Shown piece by piece: positions 26,935-49,075 of a stretch of DNA of 64,000 bases. The DNA is taken from NCBI RefSeq assembly GCF_964194155.1, contig NC_135898.1:34162001-34226000 (forward strand), in the 5' to 3' direction. Within the stretch, counting starts at the first letter, position 1; each line of letters opens with the position of its first letter. The translations under genes and the position numbers were made by a program. The notes beneath the pieces were generated by a model. It did not search any database and was not told the origin of the DNA. It worked only from the letters and a program-made list of their open reading frames with translations. The DNA comes from Cetorhinus maximus. Its lineage: Eukaryota.

Positions 26935-27029
26935 CTGTTAAAAAAGGAAAAACAGTTAGAAGATACATAGTACATATAACTCAGAGTTATACACACATGC
27001 ACCGAAGTAATGGTAATTAGCTGTAGTCC

Positions 27030-27220
27030 ACAAAGGACCATAGGCTTCTCTCTCAACTGGAGAGAGACAATTAGTTATATAGCTTGAGGGGCAACCATTC
27101 CACATCAAGCATTAAGCAAGCCAAGGAAAAGGCTTCCATAGCCAGTACAGGGATTGAACCTGTGCTGTTGGCATCATTCTGCACCACATTCTAGCCCATC
27201 TTGCCAACTGACCCATGGGT
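27030..27220 (-). mobile_element. tRNA-derived SINE (different family)
   Basis: Reverse complement has a B-box GGTTCAATCCC and an upstream A-box-like sequence; no proper cloverleaf. Confidence 0.45.
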
Positions 27221-27759
27221 GGCCTTTGACATAACAGAAGCTTTGAAAATTTGTAGGGAACAAGTCTTGTTTTTTAAAAACACAGTTTTCATCTTGCAGC
27301 ACCAGGAGAATCCATTCAGTCTGCTCTGCCATTTTGCCAAAGGTGGCAGCTCTCCACTCTTCCTTGATACTCCCCCTTCCTAGTACTGATCTCCCTTGTC
27401 AAGTCTCAATTCTATCTTCCAAAGCACAACACTTCTCATACAACTCTGTAGAGGCACATTTTTTGTGGATTGACTTGTAACTAGTTTAGTTCTAATTTTA
27501 ACATTACATCCCCTTGTTCTATGAGGGTAGGAGTTATTATCTCACTTTAACCCATCAGATCCTAAACCTAGTATTGTGCACAAATTAAATATAGTCTTTC
27601 CTAAACAAAAGAGTTTTTCATACATGTACAGCAATGCTGAAGCGAGTAATCAAAGTACCCCAAACCAAAAATAAAGTTAGAACATGTGCAGGATGATAGA
27701 TGCATTTATGCAACTACAATACATAAGGAGTACTACAGTGACACCATTTTAACAACATG

Positions 27760-28390
27760 CAGTCCAGCCATGTAAATATGGTGGCTACAAGAGCAGGTCA
27801 AAGGGTGGGAATTGAGGTGAGTAACTCACTTCGCAACTCCCCAAAGCCTGTCCACCATCTACAAAGCACAAGTCAGGGGTGTGATGGAAGATTCTCCACT
27901 TGCCTGGATGAGTGCAGCTCCAACTACACTCAAGAAGCTCGACACCATCCAGGACAAAGCAGCCCGCTTGGTCAGCACCCCACCCACCATAAACATTCAC
28001 TCCCTCAATGCACAGTATTAATTGTGTACCGCCTACTAGATGCACTGCAGCAGTTTGCCAAGTGTCCTTCAACAGCACCTTCTAAACCTGCAACCTTTGC
28101 CACCTAAAACAAGAGATACATGGGAACACCACCACCTGAAACATTTTCACCCCACACCCCTGCAAGCCACACACCATTCTGACTTGGAAATACATCGCCG
28201 CTCCTTCACCATCGCTGGGTCAAAATCCTGGAACTCCCTCCCTAACAGCACCTTGGGTGTACCTACACCACATGCACTGCAACAGTTCAAGAAGGCAGCT
28301 CACCACTACCTTCTCAAGGGCAATTAGGGATATGCAATAAATGATGGTTTTTCCAGCAACACTCACATCCCATGAAGGAATAAAAGAAAA
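27760..28390 (+). mobile_element. 5'-truncated second copy of the 701-3826 LINE family
   Basis: Colinear with 3225-3826 (HVNMVATRAGQR, SKSWNSLPNS, HHYLLKGN*, CACATCCCATGAAGGAATAAAA). Confidence 0.9.
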
Positions 28391-28934
28391 TTTGCATATT
28401 ATTTAACCTCTGCCACCATTGTGCCTAATTTTGCAGTTTCTCTCTTCCAAAGTTTGCAATGAATTTATCAAACACAGCACAGTCGGGCAACTGCTCTGTT
28501 TCCATTCAGCAGCTGCAAGTGTCATCCTGACCTGATTGACTGCGAAGAATATTAGCTTGTACTACGTAATGCTCCAGATCATCCAATTTACCTTCAGACC
28601 TGTACTTCCACATCTCACTTTGCTTTCTGACCAAAGCTCACCACAGCCTCTGCTGCCTGCGATGTGCCTTTCTCCCCCTCCCTGGCTTCCATGGTGAAGT
28701 CCAGTATTTTCTGTGTTCTACGGGTAACCAAAGCATAGCACAAAAACTGACCAAAAACTCACTCACTATTCTCCACCTTATCATTAACAAACTCATATCA
28801 ACATTATAATACATATGAATAGGTACTAGGATTACATGATCAACTATGTCTACTAATTTAACAGCCAAAAACACAATTAGCCACGTGGCAAGCGGACAAT
28901 TTACTGAACAATAGTTTAAAAACAACAGCTGTAC

Positions 28935-31900
28935 AAAAGAAAGTAACTAGGAGCAGGAGTGGCAATTCAGCCCCTCAAGTCTACCCCGCCATTCAATACT
29001 ATCATGGCTGATCTCATTTCGGCCTCAACTCCAATTTCCCACCTTCTCCCCATAACCTTTCAATCCGTTACTAATTAAAAATCTGTCTATCTCCTCCTCA
29101 AATTTATTCAGCGTCCCGGCATCCGCTGCACTCTGAGGTAGTGAATTCCACAGATTCATGACCCTTTGAGAAAAGTAATTCCTCCTCATCTCTGATTTCA
29201 ATCTACCACCCCTTAGCTTAAAACTATGGCCTCTCATACTAGAATGCCCCACAAGGGGAAATATCCGCTTCACATCTACTTTGTATATCCCCTTTAGCAT
29301 CTTATATACCTCAATTAGATCTCCTCTCATTCTTCTAAACTCTAGCGAATATAGGCCTAAACTGCTCAATCTCTCCTCATAAGACAAGCCCCGCATCTCT
29401 GGAATCAATCAATCTAGTGAACCTCCTCCGAGCCACCTCCAATGCAACTACATCCTTCCTCAAGTAAGGGGACCAAAACTGTGCACAGTACTCCAGGTGC
29501 GGTCTCACCAATGCCTTGTACAGTTGCAACAACACTTCCCTATTTTTATACTCTATTCCTTTAGCAATAAATGCCAAAATTCCATTTGCCTTCCTTATTA
29601 CCTGCTGTACCTGCATACTAGCTTTCAGCGATTCATGCACGAGGACACCCAGATCCCTCTGCACTGAAGCATTCTGAAATTTCTATCCATATAAAAAATA
29701 AGTCGCCTTTTTATTCTTCTGACCAAAACGGATAACCTCACACTTATCAACGTTAAACTCCATCTGCCAAATTTTGGCCCATTCACCTAACTTGTCCATA
29801 TCCATTTGTAAATTTCTTATTTCTTCATTGCAACTTACCTTCCCACCTATTTTGGTGTCATCTGCAAATTTAGCTATAGTGCCTTCTATCCCTGAATCCA
29901 AGTCATTAATATAGATTGTAAATAGTTGGGGCCCAAGGACCAAACCCTGCGGCACCCCAATAGTTACAGCTTTCCATCCAGAAAAAGACCCATTTATCCC
30001 GATTCTGTTTTCTGTTCGTTTGCCAATCCTCTATCCAAGCTAATAAATTACCTCTAACTCCGTGTGATCTTATCTTGTGTATTAATCTTTTGTGCGGCAC
30101 CTTATCAAAGACCTTCCGGAAGTCCAGATATACTACATCTACAGGATCCCCATTATCCACTTTGCTTGTCACATCTTCAAAGAACTCTAGCAAATTAGTC
30201 AAACACGATTTACTTTTCATAAAACAATGCTGACTCTGATGGATTTCATTTTGACTTTCCAAAGGTCCCATTACTACTTCCTTAATAATGGATTCCAACA
30301 ATTTCCCAATGACAGACGTTAAACTAACTGGTCTATAGTTTCCTACTTTCTACCTCCCTCCCTTTTTGAATAAGGGCATTATATTAGCATTTTTACAATC
30401 CACTGGAACCTTTCCAGCATCCAGGGAATTTTGGAATATTATAGCCAATGCATCCACTATCTCTGCTGTCACTTCCTTGAAGACCCTGGGATGTAGGCTA
30501 TCAGGTCCTGGGGACTTGTCACCCTTTAATCCCAATAGTTTGCTCAGTACTTTTTCTCTGGCGATGGTAGTTGTTCTAAGTTCCTCCTTCTCTATACCCT
30601 CTGCACTACCTGTTATATTGGGGTGGTACTCGTGTCCTCCATCGTGAAAACTGTGGCAAAATATTGATTGCGTCTCTGCCATTTCAGCATTCCCCATTAT
30701 TAACTCCCCAGTCTCATCCTCCATGGGACCAACATTTACTTTAGCTACTCTCTTTCCTTTTATATACTTGTAGAAGCTTTTCCTATCAGTTTTTATATTT
30801 TGCGCTAGTTTTCTTTCATAATTTACCTTTACTCTTTTTATTATTTTTTTAGTAACCCTTTGCTGATCTTTAAAAGTCTCCCAATCTTCCAGCCTGCCAC
30901 TGACCTTTGCAATTTGGTATGCCTTAGTTTTTGCCTTTATGTTATCTTTAACTTCCTTGCTTAGCCATGGATGCTTTTTCCCCCTCTTACCAGCTTTCTT
31001 CCTTTTTGGAATATATTTTACTTGGGAGGAATTGAATATCTCTTTAAATATCTGCCACTGTTCATCAACTGTCCTATCTTGTAGTCTTCCTGCCCAATCC
31101 ACTAGGGCCAAATCTACCCTCATGCCTATGTAGTTACCTTTGTTTAACTCCAGAACACTAGTGTGGGACTCATGTTTCTCGCTCTCAAACTGAACTTGAA
31201 ATTCTAGCATGCTATGATCACTCTTCCCTGGACTATGAGATCATTAATTAATCCCATCTCATTACACAAAACCAAATCCAGAATAGCCTGCTCCCTGGTT
31301 GGTTCCACAACATATTGCTCCAAGAAACAACCTCTAATACACTCTATGAACTCTCCCTCGAGGCTACCCTTGCCAATTTGATTAGCCGAGTCTATATGCA
31401 TATTAAAATTACCCATGATTATTGCCGTGCTTTTCTTACATGCTCCCAGTATTTCCTGTGCTCAACTGCTGACCTACTGTTTGGGGACCTATAGATTACT
31501 CCCACCAGGAACTTCTTTCCCTTGCTATTTCTTATTTCTATGCAGACTGACTCTACGTCTTGCTCTCCAGTGCCTATATCATTCCTCACTATAGCACTGA
31601 TCTCTTCCTTTACTAACAAAGCTACACCACCTTCTTTTCCTTCCTGCCTATACTTCTGAAACACTACCCTTGGATATTCAACTCCCAAATCTGTTCTCCC
31701 TGTAACCACGTCTCAGTAATCACCACCAAATCATACCTATTTAGCTCTATTTACGCTGTTAACTCATTAGTTTTATTCTGAATGCTATGCGCATTCAGAT
31801 ACAAAGCCTTGAAGTTTGCCCTTTTGTCAATTTTCCCTACTCTTATATGATTCTTTGGTGCAATATGGCGTTCACACACTCTGTCCCTTCCTTTGACTTT

Positions 31901-32366
31901 TTGGTAGCAATCAGCCTCATCACTAACCTGCACTCTTCGCCTCTCCTTAAGCCTTGATTTTTTACATTTCAATGCAACTGAACCCTTCCCCGCCCCCTCA
32001 CTATTTAGTTTAAAGCTCTATCTACAACCCTAGTTATGCGATTCACCATGACACTGGTCCCAGCATGATTCAAGTGGAGCCCATCCAAATGGAATAGCTC
32101 CCTCTTTCGCCAGTACTGGTGCCAATGTCCCATGAATTCGAACCCATTTCTCCCACACCAATCTTTGAGCCACTCATTTACCTCTTTAATCTTATTGACT
32201 CTGTGCCAATTAGCTCGTGGCTCAGGTAGTAATCCGAAGCTTACTACCTTTTTGGTTCTGCTTTTTAATTTAGCCCCTAGCTGCTCGTATTCCCTCAGCA
32301 GAACCTCTTTCCTCATTCTATCTATATCATTGGTACCTACATGGGCCACGACAACTGGCTCTTCCC
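28935..32366 (-). mobile_element. CR1 LINE with nearly complete ORF2 (APE+RT) and the 3' part of ORF1; frameshifted
   Basis: KALYLNAHSIQNK, GVIYRSPN, PTREQAILDLVL, KSPGPDSLHPRV, YLDFRKVFDKVPH, PQGLVLGP, KFADDTK, VRPHLEYCAQFWSP, and the CR1 tail at about 28940-29050. Confidence 0.95.
32005..32366 (-). pseudogene. CR1 ORF1 SGNH-esterase domain fragment
   Basis: HVGTNDI (block III) and DGLHLN..G (block V) motifs, typical of the esterase domain in CR1 ORF1. Confidence 0.85.
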
Positions 32367-34759
32367 AAGGAGAGACAAATATCTATTCCTGACTTACTTA
32401 ATTGTAGGTATTTTCGCATTATGTACATAACATATCCCCTCTCATCTAAACATAAACACCATTTTCTCTAACTGAACTATACTGGACTTCAAAGTAAAAA
32501 CACACCATTTGTCAACACACTGGTGAAAAGCAGACATTACTTTTATGGCAAGAAAAAGAGACATTGGGCGATTTATTTATGACTCGATATATGCCCATCT
32601 GCTTCTATTCCAAAAATTACAACATGCAGGAATAATTCACACACAGACTGGATTCCTCATTCCCAGCAAATAATTCCGTTTAAGCTATTCAGGCATACCT
32701 TCAACATTATTCCATATTTAAGCCTTCACAATTATTTTCAAGCTTTGGTAGAAGCAACAGCATTTAGAAATGCTTGTTCCACAAAGCAATACAATGTTTG
32801 CTACGACCTCAAGAATTGCATATCTCAAATGGCTTTAAAAACTTATAAGTACTCAGTTCAAACCTTGCCAATATGTGGACATGAGAGCATACATCTTGTG
32901 TGCAGACTAATGGCAGCTTGCCCAGAAGAACCAGATGGGAACAAAGCCAGGCTTTCACTCGTGCTTCGGCTAAAACTTAAGTCTTCCATAATGTAAGACT
33001 TACATATGAAAGTTAGCACAGTGCTCGCACACAACAAACCCTTGACACGTCATTTTTTTTCCCAACCAGCTACTGGACTCAGCCAGAAGATTTTGTATTA
33101 TTGCCACAGTTATAACGATAAACTTGGATACAACCACATCTGTTACCCAAAATGTGCTAATAATAGTGCAAGTTTGAATGAACAAAGTGCTCTGTACATT
33201 TCTACAACAGAGAAGACCTTACTCCCTTGTTTATGGAAAAATTCTCTTGCAAATCATATATAATAAATACCTGTCACGTCCAGATTATTGGGTATTTTAA
33301 TTGACTCCAAATTCAGACATTAACATGAGTTGGTAAAAAATCTGCATCAATATAAACAGAGTTGCAACATGGTTAACAGTTTATTTTCTGTACAAGTCAG
33401 CATCTTATAACATCAGGCTTTCCTGCTATGCGTATTAGAGAATCACAGTTCCTGTTTCAACTGAAGGACTAAAAAAAAATGGAAATCCATACATTTATTC
33501 CCATGCAAAAGGGCAATATTTGGAATAGACAAACAGCAAGAATAATTCAACAAGAAACTGGAGCAGGTTCAATCGTTCCCATCAGTTAACAGAAGTCAGT
33601 GTTAATGGGCAGGTACAATCAACAGCACTGGCCTGAAAAATGTCACTGTTACTCTACTTTGAATAGTTTCAAAAATTGTTGTGGCAGTATATTTAAAGTA
33701 ACCTGAAAATTTACAGATTATGAAAGTCAAATTGAACTCTCTCTCACATAAAAAATTGCATATCTATCCATCAGCAGGAGAAGCTTAGTCCATTCCAACT
33801 ATCTACTTAAAAACTGAGTTTTTAAGTTATTTGCTTCAGTTGCAGCCACTTTTGTAGCCAGGTGTAGTTATAAATGATTTTTCACAGGAGTAGAGAAATC
33901 CGCAAATAAAAGGAAAGCTCATTTTGCCCGACTAATTACCATGGACTCGCCTTAAATGCAAAACTCCTTGTTAGAACATGCATGGCATGAACAAGTATTT
34001 AAAGTCAACCAACAACAACAAAAATCATGGGTGGGTTTCAATTAAGAGAACTTGACCAGCCTGATAAGTTACTTCAAAAGTAGGCTGATTTAGATTCAGC
34101 ATGACATGCACAAGGGAAGGACACACATCTATCTGATCACAAAGCCCCCTGAATGAAACCTCTTCACTTACAGGGAAAGAACATGAACACAACCTGTCCA
34201 AAACTCCCTCTCCCCACTCCTTGTTGCTCTAGTTAAGCAGAGACAGCACACAGACCGCTTTGCTAAAAATTCTTGGCTGAAATCCTAACAGATAACACAG
34301 CAAACAGGAGACAAGTAGGATCCAACACCTCAAAGAGGAAACATAGGATTTCCTGATTTTAATCGAGAAATTTTAATGCTGTAATCTCATTTTACAGCTC
34401 TAATTTGTACATTGGACTTAATATCAAGTAAACCAGTAATCCCAAATAATCAAACAATAAGTCTTTATACATCATTGCACAGCAATCCAGTTTGCTGATA
34501 AAATTAACCCTTGAAGGGCTAGTCACATTGCTACTAGTGAATTAAGTAAACTCGTTACTTTAGCAGGGATTGAACTACATTTCTGGATTAGTAAAAAATT
34601 GGCCATTTGGGAATAATGAAAGGAGTGAGTCACTACTACCATCATGTTTCATCTGGGTGTGGGATGGGAGGAGGAGGGAATAAAAGAGAACACAGTTCTT
34701 CCAATTGTTGGAATGTGCATATGAACAGCAGGCGAGGATGGGATCAGACACAACTAAGA

Positions 34760-34974
34760 TGACAAAGCAAATATCATGGATGTTAAAAACACAAAATGCT
34801 GGAAATGCTCAGCAGGTCTGGCAGCATCTCCAGAGAGAAAGAAAATCATAGTTAATGCTTCCGATCTGTGACCTTTCATCAGCACTGGTTGAACCCAAAA
34901 TGTTAACTCTCTCTCTCTCCACAGGTGCTGCTAGTTGTGCCAAGTATTTTCAGCATTTTCTGATTTAAGTTTTG
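34760..34974. mobile_element. Head-to-head inverted pair of the Penelope-type hammerhead repeat
   Basis: A minus copy (CTGATGA core at 34882-34876, then AAGGTCACAGATC) abuts a plus copy (AAAATGTTAACTCTCTC..CACAGGTGCTGC). Flanked by ACTAAGA at 34753-34759 and 34975-34981. Confidence 0.7.
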
Positions 34975-35044
34975 ACTAAGAGACCCTCTTCCTCTAATAT
35001 GGAGACGATATCAACCTAACTTGTAAAAAAAATCTTCATGCCAT

Positions 35045-35821
35045 TGTTATGACACAGCAGTTGGTAAAAGCTGAGTTGCTTAAGTCCAAGAGGGAAACTT
35101 GAACAACTGTCATAACATATATTTTCAAGTGGTTTGTTTGAGATGTAGCTCTGAATTCAGGAATAAAACCACCAAGTCTTGAGGTTTTTTTAATATAAAA
35201 CTAAATTAAACATAAATGAATTTAACAATAAATTAAACACATTCACATCTACAAATTACTACAATAACTTTTAAACAAATCCCTAAATTAATCACTCGCA
35301 AGTAAATCTTCACCAAGGCAACAATAACCCATATACTTTAAACAGAAAGCAGGCAAAACACATTTGACCTTACAAATTCAAAATGAGGTTCCTTGAAATT
35401 TGGTTCCTCTGCAGACAGTTGTAGGCTTACAGGCTGGTTAGCTCTTAAATGACCCTGGACTGACACACACAAAGTCCTTTCTGTTTATACCTTTGAATGT
35501 AAATTTTCCATTGTATTACTAGGTTTTTTAAATCTTACCTCTCCTGTCAATAATCCTTTAATTCCACCAATTTTATTAGTAATATAAACACATTGCTTGG
35601 TATCTCCCAGCTAGGTGCAAGATTTCACCCATTCTTTTGAATGCAAATTTACACTTGATCTTTTAATGTCCTTATGTTTACCTAGTTAACATCTCAAAAA
35701 TACTATACATCAAAGTACCCAGACTAGCTGGCTTTAATCCAATTAAGCCACACAGACACAGACTCTACTTCAAGTCCAATTTAAAAATAATTTCCAATAA
35801 CATTAATATCTCTTCATGACA
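35045..35821. mobile_element. Solo LTR, 777 bp
   Basis: TGTTATGA...TCATGACA inverted termini with a perfect 5-bp TSD GCCAT (35040-35044 and 35822-35826). Confidence 0.85.
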
Positions 35822-37007
35822 GCCATGCTTTTAATTTCCCTCTTTAAAATTATACAATCATGATATGTGGTGATGTATCAAATGGGAGGATGCAGGTAGG
35901 CACTTGCAAAAATCCTCAAAGCAAGTTCCTGCTTTTCGTTTTCGCATGAGTAGCAGAAAGCACAAGTATCTTCAAGCATCTCTTCAAGAGACAGACAAGA
36001 GCAAGAAGAATAAAAACTACAAAGCAGTTTTTCTGATTTTGTTTCAAAGAACTTAAATATGCAGCCAGATCCGAATCTTTTTAAACACCACGGCTGGAAG
36101 TCCCACACGACTGCGCTGGTTTTTGCAGCATAATTCCTGATATCGGCACATAAAGGTTCCTGAATTTTAAGTCGAATATGTGTTCAGTGAAACTCAAGTG
36201 CCTGCGATACTTTGCACTGGATTTAAAAATATTAGAAGCCAGCCCTGCCTGCAAAACATGGCCACAACCCCCAGGGTGCCTAGAATTGGACACAATGCTC
36301 CAGCTGGGGCCTAACCGGTGTTTTAAAGGGTTTAGCAATAACTGCCTTGCTTTTATACTCTATTCTTCATTTAATAAAGCCAAGGGTGAAGTAACTACCA
36401 TTGTGGAGTTTCCGCTAATTGTAATCACTTGCAGGCTTCCGACAAGTCGCTAAAAATTAAGCTGGATCTTTTGGATGCAACGACACCGACAGGTAGGTTT
36501 TGAATGATTTTTTTTAAAAATTGCTGAAAGAACTGACTATTGCACCCCACTTTAACTAGAGAATAGCTCTGGATATTTTTAAACGTCTGTCAGTAATTTA
36601 AAATAGGGTTACACACAGGTGGTGGAGTGACAGATTTAAAATATTTGTGGTAAATCCATTTTCAACTACAATAGTCCAATTTTACAAAGGCAATGCTCTT
36701 AAATGTAAAAAAAATTTTAAAAGCAAAATTTTTCAAACAAAAGGAGTGCTTTAAAACATTCCGCTGGTCCAGGGTAAATTTTACATTTGCTGATATGAGA
36801 AATGAGTTTAAGCCAAACATCCGGGGAAATAAACACTCAGCAAAATGGCACAATTTGTGCCAGAATCACTAATTCCACCCTCACATTGCAGCATTGTAAT
36901 TAACGACAGTGAGACAGAAGCAATTCTGCTTTCAACTGCAATGTCATAGAAATTTTGTACCTCGATTAGGTTTCAGCCATGACTCCAATTAGCTAGAAAA
37001 TCATTGC

Positions 37008-37472
37008 AGGTACTGTAGCACAGTGGTTACATTACAGGACTAGTATTTCAGAGATGTGGGCTAAATGATTCAGAGATGTGGGTTAAATAATTCAGAGATG
37101 TGGGCTAAATGATTCAGAAGCACGAGTTCAATTCTAACTACAATATCAGAGGAATTTAAATGCAATTCATCAATTATATCTGAATAATAAAAGCTGGTAT
37201 CAATAATGGTGACCATGAAACTACCGGATTATTGTATAAACCTATCTGACTTATACATGTCCTTTAGGGAAGCAAATCTGCCAACCTGGTCTGACCTAAA
37301 CATGACTCCAGACCCATAACATGGTTGAGGTTAACTGCCCTCTGAAGTGGCCAATAAGGCACAATTGTATTCAAGGCAGCAGCTCACCACCGCTTTCTCA
37401 AGGGCAATCAGGAACGGGTAGAAAAAAGCTCGTCTTGACAGCAATGCTCACATCTATGAATGAATTTAAAAA
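37008..37472 (+). mobile_element. tRNA-headed SINE sharing both the 5' region and the 3' tail of the 701-3826 LINE
   Basis: A-box TAGCACAGTGG (37016-37026) and B-box-like GAGTTCAATTCT (37124-37135). 37261-37310 matches 861-909, and 37370-37470 matches 3738-3826. Confidence 0.8.
37047..37118 (+). repeat. 22-bp tandem repeat, about 3.3 copies (TTCAGAGATGTGGGCTAAATGA)
   Basis: Units start at 37047, 37069 and 37091, with a partial unit at 37113. Confidence 0.9.
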
Positions 37473-38009
37473 ATGATAATTGCACGGTTGCTTATATAAA
37501 TGCAAAAGGTCTGCAATGGCTTTTTGATTTCATAACATAAGTGGCTGCAATTTTGTAGTATCTCATATTATTCAAGATGCTTCTTATAATACACAAATTT
37601 GAATGATTATACAGACTACAATAATCTAATGAAATATGCAACACATTTACGTGATAATAGTAATACTAACGAGCTACCTGAATCCAAAAGGTAGAAAAAC
37701 AAATCCCAACTCTGTTATTTTAAAAAGTGGCGCTTTAGGCTTTAAATAACGTTCATCAACTTCTCAGCCACTTGCATGCATCATATCCTTGACACAGAAA
37801 TAGCTAATTTATTATGTTTTAAATAGATGTTTTGCAAGGTGGCCGAGAAGATGGATGAATTAGTTAGTTTGTGGCTTCATTCAAAATTCTAACAAGAGAC
37901 CTCCCTCCTCTCATTCCTTCCTGACTGCTGGTTATTTTATAAAACATTTCCTATTCAGACTAGTTTCTTTTCCCTTCCTCTCCTGAATTTGTCTAGTACA
38001 GCATGCTAG

Positions 38010-39195
38010 GTACATAGGAAATAGGGGTAGCCATTCGGCCAAAGAGTCTGCTCCACTCTTCAATGAGGTCATGCTGATCACCTGCTTTACCTCCACCTTC
38101 CTGCACTAGCCCACATCCCTTGATTCTGAGTGACTGTCAAATTATGATTTACTACACCCCTGTGAAGCACCTTGGGATGTTTTATCATGTTAAAGGAGCT
38201 ATACATATGCAAGCTGTTGCATCTAAAAATGTTGATCTAACTTGAATATACTCAACGTCTTAGCAACCACAACTCTCCAGTTCACAATTCTTTGACTGAA
38301 GGAATTTCATCTCATCTCAGTCCTAAATAGCCTATATTTCAGCACCAACAGGAATATCCTCCCAGTATACAAGTCCCTTAAGAATTTCATACTTTTCAAT
38401 CAGATCACTCAATCTCTCTGCAAAGGACAACACTCTCTCCCCAAGAATCAATATGGTGAATCTGCATTGCATTCCCTACCCTTGGCAAAGCTGTACAAGG
38501 TATGGTCTCACCAAGGCCCTTATAATTGCACCAAGACTTCATCACACTCATGCACCTAACCCCATTGGCATAAAGGCTAACATATCTTTTGCTTTTCTAA
38601 TTGCCACTGTCCCTGCATGTTAGCCTTGTGATTTGCATACAAGGATACCCACATCCCTCTGAATATCAATATTCCAAAAATATTCTGCTTTTCTATTTTT
38701 CCCTACCTTTGGGTTACCACATTTCTCTACATTGTACTCCATCTACCATTTTCTTGCCCTCTCACTTAACTGATTTACATCCTTTTGCAGTCTGGGTTCT
38801 CCTCACAGCTTACTTTTCCACCGAGCTTTGTACTGTCAGCAAACTTGGATACGTTATACTCAGTCTCCTCATTTACTCAGTCTCTTCATCTAAGTTATTG
38901 ATACAGATGTTATGTAGCTCAAGCCCGAGCACTGATCCTTGCAGAACCCCATTGGTTACAGCCTGCCAACCCAGAAATGATCTGTTTATTTCTGTTTTCT
39001 GTCAGTTATCCAATCCTCAATCCATGCTGATATTTTTTTCCTAATCCCATAAACACTGTCTAACAATCTCATGTGCTTCACCTTTCCAAATGCTTTCTGA
39101 AAATGCAAGTACACTATATCCACTTGTTCCCCTTAATCTAACCTGCCAGTTACATGGCAAAAATCTCAGATTTGTCAAACATGATCTTTTCTTAA
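38010..39195 (-). mobile_element. Old CR1 3' half
   Basis: CR1 tail at 38010-38130, GGTCTCACCAAGGCCCT (ALVRP), AGCACTGATCCTTGCAGAACCCC (GVLQGSVL). It contains a short L2/SINE tail at about 38150-38220. Confidence 0.75.
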
Positions 39196-39991
39196 ATGCA
39201 TGACATTTCCAAGTTTCACAGGTATCACTAGGCTTTCCTAACTGGATCCAATACTCTGTTCACTTGCTATCTATACATTCCAACAAAAGTCAGAGAACAA
39301 TAATAAGCAAATAATCTAAGGTTATTTCTTGTACTTTGTACTATGCCGACAGAACAAATGCAGCTGACTGCACAGATCAGGAATCAAACTAAGGAATTTC
39401 TGTTCTGTATGATTCACTGTGGTAACTGAATCGACTTGATATTGATCAAAAGGTATTCAAGTCAGGTGAGGTGTCAATCTGTTATGAAGAATAGGTGTAT
39501 GAAAACATTGGTTCTGTCATCCAGTATTACTTCAGGGCTGAAAACCTGTTTGGTAATATTGCTACCATTTTTATGGAGTGGTTTTGATAAGTTCTTTCTT
39601 GTTCCATTATTTCCTGCAGGAGCTAATTATGCAGTAATATGGACATTTTTTTCAATAAAAGCATCAAACCTAATAGTTTTTCCTTGCAAGCCAAATCATT
39701 GGTGTCAGTGTAAGTTTAGACACCTCATCCTTCTTCCTTATGTTGTAAAATAGCATACAGGAATATTTCAAATGCTGGCATTAACTTTTAAATATTCCAC
39801 CTCTGGTTTCAGCTGCCCCAGTCCCTCAAAAAAAAGTTACAATAAAGCAGATTGCGTTTTAAGTGTGTCCCACCATCTCAGTGGAAGTTCAGAATATTTC
39901 CAACTTCCATAGCTCTAACTTCAAAACATCTCAGTGACTTTTCAGATTCTGGTTTCTACTGCTGTGGCAATTAGACTGGAACATCCTCAGA

Positions 39992-40088
39992 TCTGTTGAA
40001 GGGTCATGAGGACTCGAAACGTCAGCTCTTTTCTTCTCCACCGATGCTGCCAGACCTGCTGAGTTTTTCCAGGTAATTCTGTTTTTGT
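39992..40088 (+). mobile_element. ~100-nt hammerhead-motif retro-insertion (Penelope-type), copy 1
   Basis: CTGTTGA-A-GGGTC-ATGAG-GACTC-GAAAC-GTC, then a tail. Flanked by CTCAGATCT at 39986-39994 (overlapping the element start) and 40089-40097. Confidence 0.75.
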
Positions 40089-41028
40089 CTCAGATCTACA
40101 GTTGTCTGTGGGGCAGATTTGCACAATTTAACCCAATGTATGCTGCAGTCTTAATATCTATAACTGTCCAATCATTGCATTTGAGAATTCAAACTATCTT
40201 CTTCTTTCGGCTTGAGCCAATACACCATTGCTTTAAAGCCAACTTTACCAAAACCTAAAGAAAATTCTAAGAAGGTCCAGATGGTTCTGGTAAAAAAAAC
40301 TTCCAAGTGCAATGTCTGAATCATCTAAATGGTCATCCTAAATCTGAAGAATGTTATAAATTGCCAGTTCATCTCCCATATATCTGCCAATCACAACTCA
40401 GTATTCTACTTATGACCCTAGTACTGTAATACATTTTTCAGGAGAATTTTTAAGTTGCAAGTTCTGTAGTGTCACTACAATTGGCCCTTCATTCCTAGCT
40501 ATGATCAGCAACTGGCAATTACTGTATAAATCAGAAACATAGCACACAACTAAAGAATACTGGCAGGAATAGGCTACTTAGCAGGTCTGGGATCCCATGC
40601 AACTTGAGAAAAAGTAGGCACAGCACTTACACCGGGTGACAGTAGAGAATCATAGGACCTGGGATTGGCTCATGCAAGGGGCCAAAGCTGGGCAGGTTGA
40701 TGCCTGAATTATTCACAAGAATTGAGATCATGGGAAGAGAAGGGTCTGGGATTGCTGCGGGTGAGTGATCAGAAGGCATTAGATAAAATTTGGGCCTTAA
40801 TATTGGGGTGAGGAAATGTGGGACATGGAGTCTGCCAGTCATCTGCAAATGGAATTTTGAGAGCATGGGGGAAGGATAGTCACTTTTTGGAGCATTTACG
40901 CACATGGGGATTGGAGGCAAATGAGGTTGGGATTCAGAAGCATGGCAACGGTCTGGATTTGACAACACAACGAATGGGTGGGGGGGTCGGGGGGGAGGAA
41001 GGTTAGGGGTTTGGAGAAGGGAAAAATA

Positions 41029-41447
41029 ATAATAGTTCAGATCACAGAGAGCTCCTTTATCAGCACAGACAACAGCTGCAGCAAGGAAGAACAAGCTGCT
41101 TCAACTATAGTAGGATCAAACTGCTGACGTTGCACAAGCCCTACGATGACTCTGCCTGAAAGCAAAGTGGTTTCAGGTGTTCTGTTGAAGGGTCATGTTG
41201 GACTCGAAACGTCAACTCTTTTCTTCTCCACCGATGCTGCCAGACCTGCTGAGTTTTTCCAGGTAATTCTGTTTTTGTTTATAATAGTTCAGATGTTTAT
41301 ACTAGAGTAACATGAGCACAGAGAGCTCCTTTATCAGCACAGTCAACAGCTGCAGCAAAGAAGAGCAAGCTGCTTCAACTATAGTAGGATCAAAGTGCTG
41401 ACGTTGCACAAGCCCTACGATGACTGCCTGAAAGCAAAGTGGTTTCA
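41029..41447 (+). repeat. Direct repeat of 147 bp (41029-41175) and 167 bp (41281-41447) flanking the hammerhead insertion
   Basis: Both copies run from ATAATAGTTCAGAT to GCAAAGTGGTTTCA. They differ by a 22-bp indel, a 2-bp indel and a few substitutions. Confidence 0.95.
41176..41280 (+). mobile_element. ~100-nt hammerhead-motif retro-insertion, copy 2
   Basis: GTT-CTGTTGA-A-GGGTC-ATGTTG-GACTC-GAAAC-GTC-AAC; nearly identical to copy 1. Confidence 0.75.
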
Positions 41448-43314
41448 CCAGCAACAATGGGAGAGAAAAGGGAACACTACTGTAAGCACAATAGCAAGAC
41501 AAAGTGGATGCTGTCACGCCAGGGGAAGATAAATGACTGCAATATCTAGGAAAGCAGCACCACCTCTCCCTTCTTGATCGTGTGAAGCAACAAACAATGT
41601 ACGAGAACCACTTGGAGGTCCTACTTACATTGATTATTTGCAGCAGCACAAGACTGAAATCAAATTTATAGGTTTTTGTAAAATTATTCTTCATTGGAAA
41701 TGGAAATTAGAGAATGCAAAGCAACAAGTGAACACAGCCTTCAGAATTAGCTCAAGATTTAATCCAGTCAATTACTTCCCATTACAATGGAAGAGAACCA
41801 TATCTATTGACCAGCTGATGGTGAAGGAAACAAGATCATTTCACAGAGTAAAGAAATTAATGCCCCCTTAGGCAGCAGCAGCTCTGAACAGAGATGACTT
41901 TGTCATATTTACTGGAAAGTCACAGAATTCTATTAACACTGCAGCCGCAAAAATGCAGGGGCACAATGCAAGAGAGGATAAGACAGTATGCATTTCACAA
42001 GCTCGTGAGATTTGTCAGTCTGTCACAGGGTTCCATATGAGTTTGGGGGGCGGGGGGGGGTCATACCATTGTTGGGCTTCAGGTGAAGCAGGGTTAGAGA
42101 GCAGGTGGACTAGTGTGTACATGTAATTCAGTCCCCGTTTTAAAGTCACAGATTTCTATCCTTACTTTTGTAATTCCACTATAAATAACTAAGTCCACAT
42201 TTATAATGCTAACAGCCTACATAAAACTAGTCACGCTGCAATTACAACTCAGTGTCTCCATTTACAAGTATAATTACAGCGTGTGACAAGATCACATAGG
42301 CAGTTTCCAATATAAATGTGGATGTAGGGAGTTGTAATACAAAAAGCTGAGAGTCTGAATGACTCAGATATAACAGAAGTAAAAATAACATGGACTCCAC
42401 AGTTCTAGAGGATTCTTAGCAGCAATCTATGCCAACTTTCTACTACTTGACCAGTTTTGTAACTGTTTTACATACTGTTTTATTTCCCCAATGGATTCTA
42501 TTCATTGAAATAGTCAAATTCAAACAAATAAATTCCCTGTTAAAGCAGAGGATATGCTGTTTTGCAAGTTCAGGAACATTAGGTAACATGACAGATTTTT
42601 CTGCTGTCCTTTTTAAGACCACAGGGTACACAGAGGTCAATGTGGGGTAAGTAGAGTGCAGTATTTTACTGTAGGTCAGCAGCTGATAATTAAACCCCGG
42701 CTCCTGAACAGCATCAGCACAGGCTCTAAAACCCAAATGGCCACCTTATCACTGCCAAATGAATGGCTTTGATTTTGCTTCAGTAATGGTAGCAAGCCAG
42801 TCAGAATTCACTGCCTTTGCTCCTCTGAAACTGGAGTCTGGCCATGCACAATTAAACATGGAAATCCCAAGTTGCTCTCAGTGATCCTATAGTTTCCTGT
42901 GCTGCATTGCATTCTGTTGAAGCCACCAGTATGCAATCAAGTAGAAGTCACTAAACTGATGAGAACTGTGCTGTTCAAATTGCTGCAAAAACCTGAAAAA
43001 GTTACATCTTGTTGAATGAGGGTTACTGGGTTTTTATGGCATTCTAGGCTCATAACTATTGATAAGAAACAGCTATGGCACTGAAAAGCTAATTTTAGAT
43101 TTGTTAAATGTCAAGTTTCTCCAGTAAGATTTTTTTTTTTTAAATCACATTTTAATTTTTTTTTTTTAAAAAGTTGGATATTTCAGCTTCCACCTTCACT
43201 CCATCAATGTGCCCCAATCATTCACTCTCTAAAATAATTAAAAACCAAAGGTTAATCAGTGCATTTTACTTGCTCATTTGCTGTTCAAGGAGACTTGAAC
43301 ATCATGGAATACTT

Positions 43315-43414
43315 CTTCAAGGTCTGTTGAAGGGTCATTCGGACTCGAAACGTTAACTGTGTTCCTCTCCGCAGATGCTGCCAGACCTACTGAGTTTTTC
43401 CATTTTTTGTTTTT
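43315..43414 (+). mobile_element. ~100-nt hammerhead-motif retro-insertion, copy 3
   Basis: CTGTTGA-A-GGGTC-ATTCG-GACTC-GAAAC-GTTA-AC with a perfect 14-bp TSD ATCATGGAATACTT (43301-43314 and 43415-43428). Confidence 0.8.
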
Positions 43415-44371
43415 ATCATGGAATACTTAACCGGCTCGCTCGATAACATCATTGTTGCCTGGTGACCTCATTTGTAAAGGGGAAATCCACACAAGAGATA
43501 ACTAGATCTCTTTTGGCTAGCTTTCTTCCTAGTCAGTGGCAAGTGCGCTTATTTTGCTGCTGACTGCAAAATTCAGGGCAATGGGGGCTATTTAAAAAGA
43601 TGGAATGACCTACAAGAGGCAGCATCCATAATCCATATTAATAAGTAAATGGTAAGTACTTGGAAGGAGTACTTAAAAGCATATGGAACAGGCACAGAGC
43701 ATTCAGAAATCTGGCACCTGTGTGATGAGCCAAATAGCCATTTTCTATTCAGTCAAATTCTGTGATCCTATTCAACATTCCAGTTTGCACAACTCTATGA
43801 TTACTCGAAAGAACCCATACCCAAATACTGTAGTAGAAGGATCGAGTACATTAAGGGCTAATCTGAGACTGAGTGCAGTACTGCTCACTGGTGATTAAGG
43901 TGGCAGCTGACCTAGAGCTTAGATCAGCAGTGTAGGGCTAGATAGCAACACGTAAGGACATGCCTGGGAGTCCTCTCCATATCTTTACCCGCCACTGTAA
44001 ATATGTACATAGTTCAGTAATGTTAGCAGAGGCTTGTTGCTAATTTCAACAAGATTCCTCAATGGTGTCCAAGCAGTATACATCACAGTTAGTGACAACA
44101 CAACAAAACAAATACTAGGCAAGGGCAGAATTGGGCTCAGTGGTGTTGGATTTCTTGGTCCAACGGCCAAATGACCCTCACTGTCTTAAAATACAAGAAT
44201 GAGGTGCCTGAGCTGGCATAGAATGAGAAATTTAGGAGAAAATAAGAAATCGACAAAAGAAAACAATTATATTGTTATAGTTTGAGATAGTAATCACACT
44301 AATTTCATGGAATGATACAGTACAGGAGACCATTTGGCCTATCATGCCTGTGCTAGCTCTTTGAAAGAGCC

Positions 44372-46910
44372 ATCATGAGAACATAGCAAAGAGAAGTAGG
44401 CCATTCGGCCCCTCGAGCCTGATTCTCCATTCAATAGGATCATGGCTGATCTGTTTGTATTGAGTTCCACATTCCCATCTACCCTGATAACCTTTGATTC
44501 CCTTACCTAACAAGAATCTATCTACCTCTGCCTTGAAAATGTTCAATGACCCCACTTCCACTGCCTTCTGAGGCAGAGAGTTCCAAAGTCACACAACCCT
44601 CAGGAAAGACTTCTCCTCATCTCTGTCCTAGAAGGGCGACGCCTAATTTTAAAACAGTGCTCCCTAGTTCTGGACTCACCCACAAGAGGAAACATCCTTT
44701 TCGTGTCCACCTTGTCGAGATCATTCAGGATCTTAAATATTCCAATCAAGTCGCCCCTTCTTCTAAACTTCAGTAGCTACAAGCCCGGTCTGTCCAGCCT
44801 TTCCTCATAAGACAACCCACTAATTCCAAGTATCAAACTAATAAACTGCCTCCAATGCATTTACATCCTTCCTTAAATAAGGAGACTGCACATAGTATTC
44901 GAGATGTGATCTCACTGTATAACTAAAACTTTAATGCCCTGTATAACTAAAACATAACATCCTTACTTATTTGTTCAATTCCTCTCATAAAAGGATAGCT
45001 ATCCATTAGCTTTCTTAATTATTTGTTGTACCCGCATACTAACTTTTTGTGACTCATGTACCAGGACACCTAGATCCTTCTGCACCTCGGAGTTCTGCAA
45101 TCGTTCTTCGTTTAAGCAATACTCTGCTTTTTTATTCTTCCTGCCAAAGTGAATAACTTCACATTGTCCCACATTATACTCCATCTGCCATATTTTTGTC
45201 CACTCGCTCAACCTATCTATACCATCTGCAAACTCCTCATGTGCTCTTCACAACATACTTTCCTACCTATCTTTGTACCATCTGCAAATTTAGCTACTAT
45301 GCCTTCGCTCACCTCATCTAAGCCATTGATATAAATTGTAACAAGTTGAGGCCCAAGCACAGACCCCTGCAGGACTCCACTCATCACATTCTACCAATCA
45401 GAAGACGACCTATTTATGTGTACTCTGTTTTCTGATAGCCACCCAACCTTCTATCCATGCTAATATGTTACCCCCTACACCATGGCCTTTTATTTTCCAT
45501 AATAACCTTTGATGTGGCACTTTACCAAATGCCTTCTGGAAATCTACAGGCTCCCCTTTATCCGGAGCACACACATTATTCGTCAAAGAACTTTAATAAA
45601 TTGGTTAAACATGATTTCCCTTTCACAAAAACACGCTGACTCTTCCCATTACTTTGAGTTTTTCTAAGTGCCCAGCCAAAACCTCCTTCATGGTCAATTC
45701 TAACACCTTCCCCACAACAGATGTCAAGCTAACTGGCCTATAGTTTCCTGCCTCCCTCCCTTCTTGAATAGAGGGATTATATTTGCTACTTTCCAATCTG
45801 ACGGAACCTTTCCAGAATCTAGGGAATTTTAGAAAATTAACACCAACACACCTACTACCTCAGCAGCCACCTCTTTTAAGACCGTGGGGTGAAGTCCATC
45901 TGGAACCAGAGGCTTGTCAGCCCACAGCTCCATCAATTTGCTCAGTACCACTTCCCTCATGATTGCAATTTCACCAAATTCCTCTCCCTTCCACCTCCTG
46001 ATTTACAGCTATGACTGGAATGCTTTTTGTATCCTCTATCGTGAGGACAGAAGCAAAATATTTGTTCATTTCCTCTGGCATTTCCTCATTATCTATTAAC
46101 TCCCCATTCTCACTCTCTAGAGGGAGGACCAACACTCACTTGACTTACTCTTTTCCTTAAACACCTGTAGGAACTCTTGCCTTCCGTTTTTTCATTTCTA
46201 ACTAGCTTCCTCTCGTTTTCTAATTTCTTTCTCCTGATTTTAGTCATTCTCTGCCGTTCTTCATATTCTGACCAATCATCTGACATGCCATTCATCTTTG
46301 TGCAGTTATCTGCTTTTTCCTTAAGTTTGATGCTTTCTTTAACTTCTTTCGTTAACCATGGATGGTGGGTCCTCCCTTTAGAATTTAGAATTTTTCTTTC
46401 TTGTAGCAATATATTTATTCTGAAATATCTCTAATTGTTTGCCACTGCTTCTCTATTGATCTATCTCCTAGTCTAGTATCCCAGTTCACTTCAACTAGCT
46501 CAGCTTTCATTCCCACGTAGTTGCCCTTATTTAAGTTTAAAATGCTCATCTTAGACCCACTCTTCTCCCTTTCAAACTGGATGTAAAATTCAATCATATC
46601 GCTGCTACATAAGGGTGCCTTTACTCTGATGTCATTAATTAATTCTGTCACATTACACAATACCAAGTCTAATACAGCCAGCTTTCTGGTTGGTTCCAGA
46701 ATGTGCTACTCTAAGAAACTCTCAAAAGCATTCTATGAACTCATCCAGGCTACTACTGCCAATCTGATTTTTCCAGTTCACATGTAGATTAAAATCATCC
46801 ATGATTATTGCCTTTATCACAAGCACCCAGTATTTCTTCCTGTATTCCACATTATGGTTACTGTTAGGGGGTCTATAGACCACTCCCAAGAGAGACTTCC
46901 CCCCCACTCA
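44372..46910 (-). mobile_element. CR1 LINE ORF2 (decayed), nested in an older CR1 tail
   Basis: GVVYRPPNS, WLTKEVKESIK, WQMEYNVGQC, DLGVLVHESQK and a CR1 tail. The host element is split at TTTGAAAGAGC (about 44370) and TATCCAATTAGTCCCAC (about 46933). Confidence 0.9.
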
Positions 46911-47329
46911 GTTTCTTCAGCTGCACTTGTTTTATCCAATTAGTCCCACTTCCTTGCCCTTTCCCCAGAGCCCTACAATGTTTTCTCCTTCAGATATTTA
47001 TCCAATTCCCTACCAAAAGTTATTAAAATCTGCTTCCACCACTCTTTCAAACAATGCCTACTCACCTCACCTCTGGTTCTTTTGTTAATTATCTTGTGAT
47101 AACAAATGTAATTTGCCATATAAAATTACTTAATTGCATTTTCCAGGCAAATTCCACTTGTTTTCACCTTTCTATTCCAACAATTCAATCTGACGTACCA
47201 GTTAAACATAAGGATGACCAAAAACTTCATTTTCAGTCCCCCACCAACTCTGTACCTTTGCTTAGATCCCTCTCCTTAGCCTAGCTTCAAGCTAAGCTTT
47301 TAACTCAGTATCCTTTCCTTCACAAAGGC

Positions 47330-47855
47330 AAGGACCACCAGCCACAACATTAACTATGACATCACTACTTAGCCCATCTACTGATACAACTGATATACAC
47401 CTTTGTCACCTCCAGCCTCAACTATTTCAACATTTACATCCTTGATTTAAAACTCTACTGCTTGCATCTGCACACAAATCAGATCCGGCTCACCCAGCAC
47501 CCCTGTACTCACTGACCTACATTGACAGCTGGTCCCAACATTTCAAATTCTCATCTTCAGATTTAAATTTCTTCATGGTCTCATACCATCTTATACTCTC
47601 CAACACCCTCCCATGGAACTCTCCATTCATTGGACTCCCACTTCCCTTTATCCCCCCATTGGCAGCAGTGCCATCAACCAACTAGGACTCTCACTATGGA
47701 GGTCCTGACCCAGACCCCAACACCTTCAAGACTCTCAACACCCAATTTTAGTCAGCCTTCCCAATTATCTCAATCTTTGGCTCTGTGCAATTTCTTATGT
47801 CTCTGAAGTATCTTGGGGCGTTTTGCTGCAGTATAGCTTCATAAATGCAATTTTA
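47330..47855 (+). mobile_element. L2-type LINE 3' fragment (old)
   Basis: CCTTTGTCACCTCCAG, CCCCTGTACTCACTGACCTACATTG (P.L.DLH) and an L2-like tail TGAAGTATCTTGGGGCGTTTT..ATAAATGCAA. Confidence 0.55.
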
Positions 47856-48589
47856 ATATTGGCTATTTTAAGAAAGTTAATATACACAACTTCGCATGGA
47901 AACTCCACAATAAAAAAAACAATGTATTTATATTCCATGATAGCCGATGCAGCTCAGGTGTCATGGGAAATGTTTTAATGGATAAGCAGAGCTCTTAGTT
48001 AGGACAGTGAAGATGTACAGATGCCAACACTACTAGGTCAGTTGTGTTAATGTGCAAAGTTAGCACTCAAGGTCATTATTACATTTGTTGCCATGAGTGA
48101 AAAAAGTCCCAGATCACACAGCTAAAGGTAACGTCAACAAAGTTTATCCAACACGCCCCGAAAAAGACAGGCAGAAATAAATGGGTGTTTCATAGTTAAT
48201 GGGTAAATTCAGTGAACAATATTCAAAGCTGGTTTGCCTTTTTAAAATTTGGATTCCTATTTGGGTCTCCATTTGAAAATCACCGCTCGGCTCCAATTAA
48301 TTTTGTGAAGACAAAACAGTCGTCAAAATTGGACTTTGTTTTTTGTTATGACTAAAACAGTTCCACATCCCATGGCGTGATGCCAAAAATCTAACGCAAT
48401 TAATTAGCATCCTACAACAAAAAAAAGCCATTTTGTATCGTGGATGCTGCGCAAATGTTTGAACATTTTGCTCAGTGGAGATGATGTTAGTCAGTCCATG
48501 AGCAATCACTTATTTATAAGATCTGGAATGAAAACATATAAACCCAGAGTGTTACTGAACACCTTCCCACAGAATGGAGTTGTTAATTT

Positions 48590-49075
48590 TCTAACAGAGC
48601 GGCCTTTGGCGGTGGCCGGGTTCAGACTCACGGTGCGGCCTGATGCTCACCAGCCAGCCCCACACTGAACTCAGGGCCTTCCACAAGCGGCTGGCCCGCC
48701 TGCGAGTCACCCAGGCCGCCGAGCCCGAGTCACCGGCGGGCTGCTTGTTGCTGCTGAGACCCAGCAGTGTCCTTTCGCTCCGCCACTGAGTAAAGCCGCA
48801 CCTCGCCCGGCCCGCGATCGTTCTCACTTACACCACAACCCTCGAGATGATCCACGACACCATGGCCCTGGCTGCCAGTTGGTCTCTCGCTCGCTCTCCG
48901 CTCGGTGAAACGCGCGCCCCTCCCTCACAATGACACCCCACCCGGGCCGGGAGACCTAACCCAGGCCTCATTGGCCAAACTGGACATCTCCAAGGTTACG
49001 CCTCTGGATTCCAGCTCTGATTGGCCAGACCGCCTGTCAATCAGTGCATTGCCCCGTCCTCCAATGTTTCCGGTG
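48590..49075 (-). promoter_or_regulatory. CpG-island promoter/first exon of the REEP gene with CCAAT boxes
   Basis: The clearest CpG-rich stretch in the window (e.g. CGCGCGCC, CCCGCGATCG), surrounding the ATG. It has ATTGG/CCAAT motifs at about 48970, 49020 and 49061, and no obvious TATA box. Confidence 0.75.
48832..48863 (-). CDS. REEP3: REEP3-like receptor expression-enhancing protein, coding exon 1 (MVSWIISRVV + 2 nt)
   Basis: Minus strand reads GGGCC-ATG GTG TCG TGG ATC ATC TCG AGG GTT GTG GT|GTAAGT. It has a strong Kozak context, 32 coding nt (the conserved REEP1-4 exon-1 size) and a canonical donor, and it lies in a CpG-rich island. Confidence 0.92.

What the first reader, a model, noticed from the sequence alone, without database searches (positions are those of the whole stretch)
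39986..43428. Cluster of three young ~100-nt mini-retroelements, each carrying a minimal type I hammerhead-ribozyme motif
Seen: three near-identical, same-orientation inserts lie within 3.4 kb (39992-40088, 41176-41280, 43315-43414). Each reads CTGTTGA-A-[GGGTC loop GACTC]-GAAAC-GTC/GTTA followed by a ~65-nt tail ending in a T-rich run, and each has its own flanking direct repeat (9, about 150 and 14 bp). The stem II arms are invariant while the loop varies (ATGAG, ATGTTG, ATTCG), which is the pattern expected of a conserved RNA structure. Established: Penelope-like elements and non-LTR retrozymes carry minimal type I hammerheads (CUGANGA..GAAA) with a palindromic mini stem III, proposed to cleave as dimers. 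Inference: this is a non-autonomous, retrozyme-like family mobilised by a Penelope RT. All three are antisense to the REEP pre-mRNA, which would avoid cleaving it.
Basis: partly seen in the sequence, partly recalled or inferred. Interest (0 to 1): 0.7.

Follow-up and report, generated by a model that had tools for sequence, protein, structure and literature searches.

The report
Penelope retrotransposon stubs with altered hammerhead
These three inserts are short end pieces of a very common Penelope-type jumping gene rather than a separate mini-element, and the hammerhead RNA motif they carry has one normally fixed letter changed, so it likely cuts poorly and the pieces were likely copied from uncut RNA.

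Summary
The three inserts, their flanking duplications and their antisense position in REEP intron 1 are real. They are not a separate retrozyme family. The same ~100 nt ends a Neptune-type Penelope-like element (RT, Cys linker, GIY-YIG) about 350-410 nt after its stop codon; window copies are 93-98% identical to such ORF-linked ends, and their three loops mark three ORF-bearing subfamilies. One 33-mer of the family has 54,749 exact matches in the genome, so a same-strand triple is expected about 50 times by chance. The motif has minimal-hammerhead layout, but core A6 is U in all three and stem I is broken in two. Short copies start at the motif's first bases (542 of 11,375) far more often than at the cut site (at most 38 of 9,745): likely run-off copies of uncut RNA beginning at an initiator-like site. 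Across U6/C6 subfamilies the other 20 core, stem I and palindrome positions never change (flanks 20-25 of 101), so the motif is still constrained. Antisense bias in eight other genes is weak (27:18, p=0.23). The scan found the same family traits before, in this genome and others.

The parts
39986..39994 (+). left target-site duplication of copy 1 (last 3 bases double as element -1, C3, U4)
39992..40088 (+). copy 1: solo pLTR end, U6 core, ATGAG loop, no tail; stem I mismatched; predicted cut after 40023
   Evidence: (95/97 identical to ORF-linked L028)
40089..40097 (+). right target-site duplication of copy 1
41029..41175 (+). left copy of the long (147-bp) duplication flanking copy 2
41176..41280 (+). 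copy 2: 3 untemplated bases, then element from -3; U6 core, ATGTTG loop, 3-bp stem I, no tail; predicted cut after 41213
   Evidence: (99/101 to L028, 98/100 to L065)
41281..41447 (+). right copy of the long duplication (4 substitutions, 2-bp gap, 22-bp extra at 41295-41316)
43301..43314 (+). left target-site duplication of copy 3
43315..43414 (+). copy 3: 9 extra bases (first six read as an inverted scrap of the core), U6 core, ATTCG loop, GUU triplet, older subfamily; stem I mismatched; predicted cut after 43354
   Evidence: (86/92 to ORF-linked L005, L061)
43415..43428 (+). right target-site duplication of copy 3
26935..48830 (-). intron 1 (approximate bounds) of a REEP-family gene that hosts the three copies in antisense
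34785..34967 (.). older head-to-head inverted pair of the same family; the minus arm (sense to REEP) has an A6 core but a decayed GAAA strand

Best explanation
The three inserts are independent solo insertions of the last ~100 nt (pLTR end with a minimal hammerhead-shaped motif) of an abundant Neptune-type Penelope-like retrotransposon, likely made when the element's RT started inside its RNA and ran off the uncut 5' end of a transcript that likely begins at the motif's first base. Shown: identity with ORF-linked ends, copy numbers, two alternative 3' ends, a pile-up of 5' ends at -5..0, rarity of starts at the cut site, U at core position 6, broken stem I in copies 1 and 3. Inferred: GIY-YIG nicking and target-primed synthesis giving the duplications; internal RT start at about +98 (no tail) or +133 (tail), by analogy with the anole Poseidon element; transcription start at an initiator-like TCAGTT/TTAGTT (about 60%); A6U makes the motif a slow cutter at best (about 70%); these three copies are inert passengers in a REEP intron (about 85%).
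For: ORF link: 528-residue frame in L057 with RT (RVT_1 E=2.7e-6), C-x4-C-x2-C linker and GIY-YIG (E=2.6e-4; over cut-off in L007) ending 361 nt before the core; 67 listed rows (some overlapping loci) have the ORF end 351-407 nt upstream of a core. Window copies 93.5-98% identical to ORF-linked ends; each of the three loops also occurs in ORF-linked copies. No PLE ORF in the window. 54,749 exact matches of a tail 33-mer. 108 of 209 copies carry the optional ~35-nt tail, head-to-head inversions are common: both PLE hallmarks (PMC8557442, PMC11167929). 5' ends: 12 of 58 copies not selected for the core start at -5..0 and none at -108..-6; core-selected 22 of 134 vs 15 over those 103 nt. Genome-wide 542 of 11,375 begin at -4/-3 by a three-foreign-base test vs 38 of 9,745 at the cut site, and only 1 of 8 inspected was a clean solo start. 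A6C lowers the Mg2+ rate from 0.30 to 3.6e-6 per min at 0.3 mM (PMC7151607) and single changes in the CUGA turn gave low activity (PMC9901934). Hammerhead mutants did not affect insertion in vitro (PMC11167929).
Against: No RNA 5'-end data: only assembled contigs were offered. An extra cap-derived G was not clear (hand tally of the first 100 rows: -5 G 16 of 51, p=0.25; -4 G 21 of 49, p=0.04), so RT stalling at the structure's edge remains possible. The other core positions are still constrained in U6/C6 subfamilies (0 of 20 vs 20-25 of 101, p=0.013-0.042), which argues the motif still does something. A6U itself was not measured in any paper I could read; Lunse et al. 2017 was not available. 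The A6 subfamily also shows no cut-site starts (6 hits, none clean, no denominator), so lack of a cut footprint does not single out A6U. Clade rests on the linker, not on an RT tree. The 147-bp duplication is unusually long and was not checked against reads.
Confidence: 0.72

Rival explanations
1. The U6 motif is still a working, protein-assisted (or metal-selective) dimeric hammerhead in the active element, used at a step that leaves few genomic traces; the three stubs are by-products.
For: Subfamily majorities defined on flanks alone change only at positions 6, 7, 17, loop II and one compensatory stem II pair; 0 of 20 core/stem I/palindrome positions vs 20-25 of 101 flank positions. Stem II 99.5% paired with 3 cells changed on both sides. 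The anole PLE hammerhead cleaves only with its protein (PMC11167929); A6C stays active in Mn2+ (PMC7151607).
Against: Few independent events along one ladder-like lineage. The 5' strand of stem I overlaps the initiator-like sequence, so promoter constraint could explain part of it. Cut-site starts are rare. Covariation score not above shuffles (91 of 500).
Confidence: 0.3
2. The ~100-nt pieces are ordinary random 5' truncations, with RT stalling or switching template at the edge of the folded motif, not at a transcript start.
For: PLEs are known for heavy 5' truncation (PMC8557442); many breaks are inversion junctions with microhomology; cap G not clear.
Against: The pile-up lies at the far (5') edge of a weak 4-bp stem and on an initiator-like sequence; monomers fold no better than shuffles (z -0.45 to +1.3).
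Confidence: 0.25
3. One reading: a separate non-autonomous retrozyme-like mini-element that self-cleaves as a dimer, circularises and is kept antisense in introns.
For: Discrete ~100-nt size with own duplications; one head-to-tail trimer of 94-nt units exists (L171); REEP holds 6 antisense and 0 sense solo copies.
Against: No private sequence: 93.5-98% identity to ORF-linked ends; units start before the core, not at the cut site as circle-derived monomers would; tandem arrays at 1 locus among 209 copies; core A6U and broken stem I; sense-strand young copies occur in introns (4 of 14 young solos outside REEP).
Confidence: 0.05

Closest known systems
Minimal hammerheads (min-HHR) in pLTRs of metazoan Penelope-like elements (Cervera and De la Pena 2014, PMC4209133; parts 1-2 of 4 read)
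   Same: Type I layout, 4-bp stem I, extra base between 9 and 10.1, G10.1-C11.1, palindromic 15.2/16.2 with no stem III, mostly solo and truncated copies, opposite-strand pairs.
   Different: Core position 6 is U (or C) in the young subfamilies; stem II is 5 bp; the text read names fish, coelacanth, frog and reptiles, not cartilaginous fish.
Neptune-clade EN+ Penelope-like elements (PMC8557442, passages; PMC3846280, passages)
   Same: RT, CX2-5CxxC linker, C-terminal GIY-YIG; pLTR, optional 30-40 bp tail, inverted 5'-truncated copies, initiator-like sequence in the pLTR.
   Different: Nothing structural found; very high copy number and a sharp short-copy size class. Clade not tested by tree.
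Anole Poseidon element PAc (Frangieh et al. 2024, PMC11167929; parts 1-2 of 4 read)
   Same: Two alternative 3' ends downstream of the hammerhead; uncut RNA as template.
   Different: Different PLE clade; here inferred from genomic copy ends only.
Metazoan non-LTR retrozymes (PMC7229834, passages; bioRxiv 10.64898/2026.07.22.740005, part 1 of 5 and passages)
   Same: Short, non-coding, type I hammerhead, Penelope-related.
   Different: Retrozymes are tandem arrays giving ~170-400 nt circles, usually with canonical cores; these are dispersed solo ~100-nt ends with a minimal, altered core.

Membership tests
EN+ Penelope-like element | RT plus C-terminal GIY-YIG in one ORF linked to the repeat | tested here: met
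   (in other loci; none in the window)
EN+ Penelope-like element | Optional 30-40 bp tail and inverted 5'-truncated copies | tested here: met
   108 of 209 copies with tail; 12 inverted pairs among 63 events
EN+ Penelope-like element | Full pLTR-ORF-pLTR tandem unit | not tested
   longest frames seen were 5'-truncated (528 and 539 residues); no targeted search for a complete copy
Neptune clade | CX2-5CxxC linker before GIY-YIG | tested here: met
   C-x4-C-x2-C in L007, L057, L064; Nematis shares this motif (PMC8557442)
Neptune clade | RT phylogeny with reference clades | not tested
   no labelled reference set at hand
Minimal type I hammerhead | Conserved core CUGANGA...GAAA...UH | tested here: not met
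   position 6 is U in all three copies; other core bases present
Minimal type I hammerhead | Stem II with G10.1-C11.1 and extra base after A9 | tested here: met
Minimal type I hammerhead | Stem I closing the motif | tested here: not met
   met in the family (4 bp) but mismatched in copies 1 and 3, 3 bp in copy 2
Minimal type I hammerhead | Stem covariation across the family | tested here: inconclusive
   3 cells with both-side change (5 of 500 shuffles), covariation score not above shuffles (91 of 500); one compensatory pair between subfamilies
Minimal type I hammerhead | Self-cleavage as dimer | not testable with these tools
   indirect only: few genomic starts at the cut site
Non-LTR retrozyme | Head-to-tail tandem repeats of the hammerhead unit | tested here: not met
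   window copies are 1.2 and 2.1 kb apart with unrelated spacers; 1 tandem locus among 209 copies
Non-LTR retrozyme | Sequence lineage separate from the autonomous element | tested here: not met
   loop variants shared with ORF-linked copies
Non-LTR retrozyme | Circular RNA monomers | not testable with these tools
   only assembled contigs were offered

The most novel reading that the evidence does not exclude
A vertebrate Penelope lineage replaced the invariant hammerhead A6 with U and then C, kept every other core base through many subfamilies and tens of thousands of insertions, and places this motif at the very 5' end of its RNA; the motif is a deliberately slowed, protein-switched ribozyme, and the ~100-nt stubs are a genomic map of the RNA's start and of the RT's internal start sites.
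Probability: 0.25. Interest if true: 0.6.

Novelty: new variant of a known kind. Interest (0 to 1): 0.33.

Why it matters
The cluster itself is ordinary. What would matter is the family: why Penelope elements keep hammerheads is open, and this genome holds co-existing young A6, U6 and C6 subfamilies with otherwise identical cores, a ready-made comparison for cleavage assays. The short-copy size class, if it marks the transcript start, would extend the in vitro finding of internal RT initiation on uncut RNA to a second clade in vivo.

Tried and rejected
Rfam scan: no hammerhead match. DNA search of the genome with the unit returned nothing because common words are skipped; pattern searches replaced it. 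Folding of monomers: no better than shuffles; predicted folds pair the core strands with each other in both U6 and A6 versions, so misfolding is not specific to U6. Solved-structure search with the RT-EN frame: none. Orientation bias: not significant outside REEP; spans were inferred from same-strand spectrin-repeat exons, and the C16 span rests on two exons (without it 25:18, p=0.36). Cut-site footprint, tested after earlier scan notes suggested one: not seen in the U6 subfamily (38 of 9,745, mostly inversion junctions or deletions) nor in the young A6 subfamily (6 hits, none clean). Cap-G signature: inconclusive. First constraint test was circular because subfamilies were assigned with core letters and 48 of 95 copies were dropped; redone on flanks only (64-85 of 95 copies in clusters). 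Expression: 22 runs hold part of an ORF-linked copy, all as contigs, most only guessed to be RNA; not used as evidence. No reads were laid on the window, so empty alleles and the long duplication are unchecked. Not in print, as far as searched: searches found no paper on a CUGUUGA core or on shark PLE hammerheads; Lunse et al. 2017 could not be read and one supplement file of PMC4209133 was not searchable, either may describe such variants; supplements of the bioRxiv preprint were not seen.
Full report
Observation. The three inserts are present as described, with core C3 at 39993, 41182 and 43324 on the plus strand. Flanking duplications are 9 bp, 147 bp (4 substitutions, a 2-bp gap, a 22-bp insertion in the right copy) and 14 bp. 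A REEP-family gene runs on the minus strand: exons at about 48863, 26930 and 5830 were found with recalled peptide motifs and a PF03134 exon lies 1.3 kb beyond the window start. The copies are antisense in intron 1. Seven older fragments of the same repeat lie elsewhere in the window on both strands. Rfam reports no hammerhead.

Family size. Exact genome-wide counts: a tail 33-mer 54,749; the core pattern with any two bases at positions 6-7 21,944, of which U6U7 14,229 and A6 1,876; reversed-pattern controls 0. These core counts fix stem II as GGGUC/GACUC, so older families, which mostly have A6, are not counted. In 797.5 kb of eight other gene spans there were 17 young events (80 bits or more; 0 control hits), about 21 per Mb; a same-strand triple within 3.4 kb is then expected about 53 times in the genome. 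Copies 1 and 2 belong to young subfamilies, copy 3 to an older one, so they are separate insertions.

Identity. In other loci the same unit follows an ORF end by 351-407 nt (67 listed rows, some overlapping). L057 holds a 528-residue frame with RT motifs, a C-x4-C-x2-C linker and GIY-YIG (GIY-YIG over the Pfam cut-off in L007). The closest named proteins are from sharks and rays at 61-68% identity, so the host is likely a cartilaginous fish. The linker places it with Neptune or Nematis (PMC8557442, passages); no RT tree was made. Window copies are 95/97, 99/101 and 86/92 identical to ORF-linked ends, and the loops ATGAG, ATGTTG and ATTCG each occur in ORF-linked copies, so the loop variation marks subfamilies of the parent element. 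The window has no PLE ORF. The family has two 3' ends: 108 of 209 copies carry a ~35-nt tail; the window copies lack it. Head-to-head inversions are common (12 of 63 events). Both are described PLE traits (PMC8557442, PMC3846280, passages; PMC11167929, parts 1-2 of 4).

The motif. Layout matches the minimal PLE hammerhead of PMC4209133 (parts 1-2 of 4): 4-bp stem I, extra A after A9, 5-bp stem II, ACGU palindrome. On 44 distinct motifs stem II is 99.5% paired with 3 both-side changes (5 of 500 shuffles), while the covariation score is not above shuffles (91 of 500). Two defects matter. Position 6 is U, not A. A6C lowered the Mg2+ rate about 100,000-fold at 0.3 mM but spared Mn2+ activity (PMC7151607, passages and Table 1; also PMC3088659, passages), and single changes in the CUGA turn gave low activity (PMC9901934, passages); A6U itself I found unmeasured. 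Stem I is mismatched in copies 1 and 3 and 3 bp in copy 2. A tree of 95 copies with positions 6-7 masked (141 columns, many open forks, midpoint root) shows A6 groups at the base, a ladder of U6 subfamilies and C6 nested inside; mean pairwise differences fall from 0.146 (AA) through 0.082 (older UU) to 0.017-0.040 (young UU, CU, CC), with one young A6 subfamily at 0.031. With subfamilies clustered on flanks alone, non-A6 majorities differ at 0 of 20 core, stem I and palindrome positions against 20-25 of 101 flank positions (p=0.013-0.042 over three thresholds; 64-85 of 95 copies clustered), and stem II changes only by one compensatory pair. So the lineage spread without A6 yet kept the rest.

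How the stubs form. Among 58 copies not selected for the core (the three window copies included), 12 begin at -5..0 relative to C3 and none at -108..-6; among 134 core-selected copies 22 versus 15 (the middle of that output was cut, the tallies were seen; some long values are artefacts of inverted partners). Genome-wide, 542 of 11,375 exact cores have three foreign bases just upstream of -4, versus 38 of 9,745 at the predicted cut; of 8 of these 38 inspected, 5 were inversion junctions, 2 internal deletions, 1 a clean start. The young A6 subfamily gave 6 hits, none clean, with no denominator. Position -4 is the A of TCAGTT/TTAGTT, an initiator-like sequence (consensus recalled; pLTR initiators are described in PMC2377424 and PMC3846280, passages). 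In the anole element RT starts at two internal sites downstream of the hammerhead, uncut RNA is the main template and hammerhead mutants still insert (PMC11167929). I infer that a transcript starting at -4/-3 is copied from +98 or +133 to its 5' end and inserted as a ~100- or ~135-nt solo. A cap-derived G was not clearly seen, so stalling at the motif remains a rival.

Orientation. Outside REEP, 27 solo copies were antisense and 18 sense (p=0.23), young ones 10 and 4 (p=0.18), plus 11 inverted pairs that put one arm in sense; REEP has 6, 0 and 1; all together 33:18 (p=0.049). A weak bias is possible, but sense copies are tolerated, and splice-like signals in the tail would be an alternative cause.

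Retrozyme test. Non-LTR retrozymes are tandem arrays giving ~170-400 nt circles (PMC7229834, passages; bioRxiv 10.64898/2026.07.22.740005, part 1 of 5 and passages). Here one tandem locus was found among 209 copies (L171), units begin before the core rather than at the cut, and there is no private lineage. The inserts work like Penelope by-products and are not retrozymes.

Literature and earlier scan notes. Searches found no paper on this core or on shark PLE hammerheads; Lunse et al. 2017 was seen only as summarised in PMC6765202 (passages); PMC6155905 (passages) gave background. The scan's own unreviewed notes report the 5' pile-up and the A6U/A6C cores in this and other genomes; my counts for both came first. 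Their cap-G and cut-site leads were tested here and not confirmed for these subfamilies.

Verdict. Real sequence, ordinary cluster, known kind of element with a variant core. Interest 0.33.

Noticed in passing
L171 (G000:C1:12481892-12482925), minus strand: Head-to-tail trimer of 94-nt units of the family, the only retrozyme-like array seen; shared private changes suggest local duplication after insertion.
   Followed up: partly
window 41029-41447: The duplication around copy 2 is 147 bp, far longer than the 8-16 bp seen at other solos, with a 22-bp stretch present only in the right copy.
   Followed up: partly
window 40068-40080 and equivalents in each copy: In element sense the tail holds splice-like signals (pyrimidine run then CAG, followed by GTAA; older subfamilies end TTTCAG), a possible cause of any antisense bias that needs no ribozyme.
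   Followed up: no
L056, L057, L064, L073: The youngest-looking C6C7 subfamily carries long unbroken RT-EN frames and the one compensatory stem II change.
   Followed up: partly
L059 minus strand, near 3278: One A6-subfamily copy begins exactly at the predicted cut site (1 of 188 copies).
   Followed up: partly
window 2232-3779, 27742-28107, 29025-31240, 32005-32382: Decayed CR1/L2-type LINE RT and endonuclease fragments in the REEP introns (labels recalled from the translations).
   Followed up: no
window 61347-63598: Fragments that read like gag/protease/integrase of an LTR-type retroelement (label recalled); observed only.
   Followed up: no
window 17015-17922: Overlapping open frames of 120-246 residues on both strands inside REEP intron 2; not identified.
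   Followed up: no
L057 503-1225: A 33-bp tandem repeat giving open frames on both strands next to what reads like a solute-carrier first exon (label recalled).
   Followed up: no
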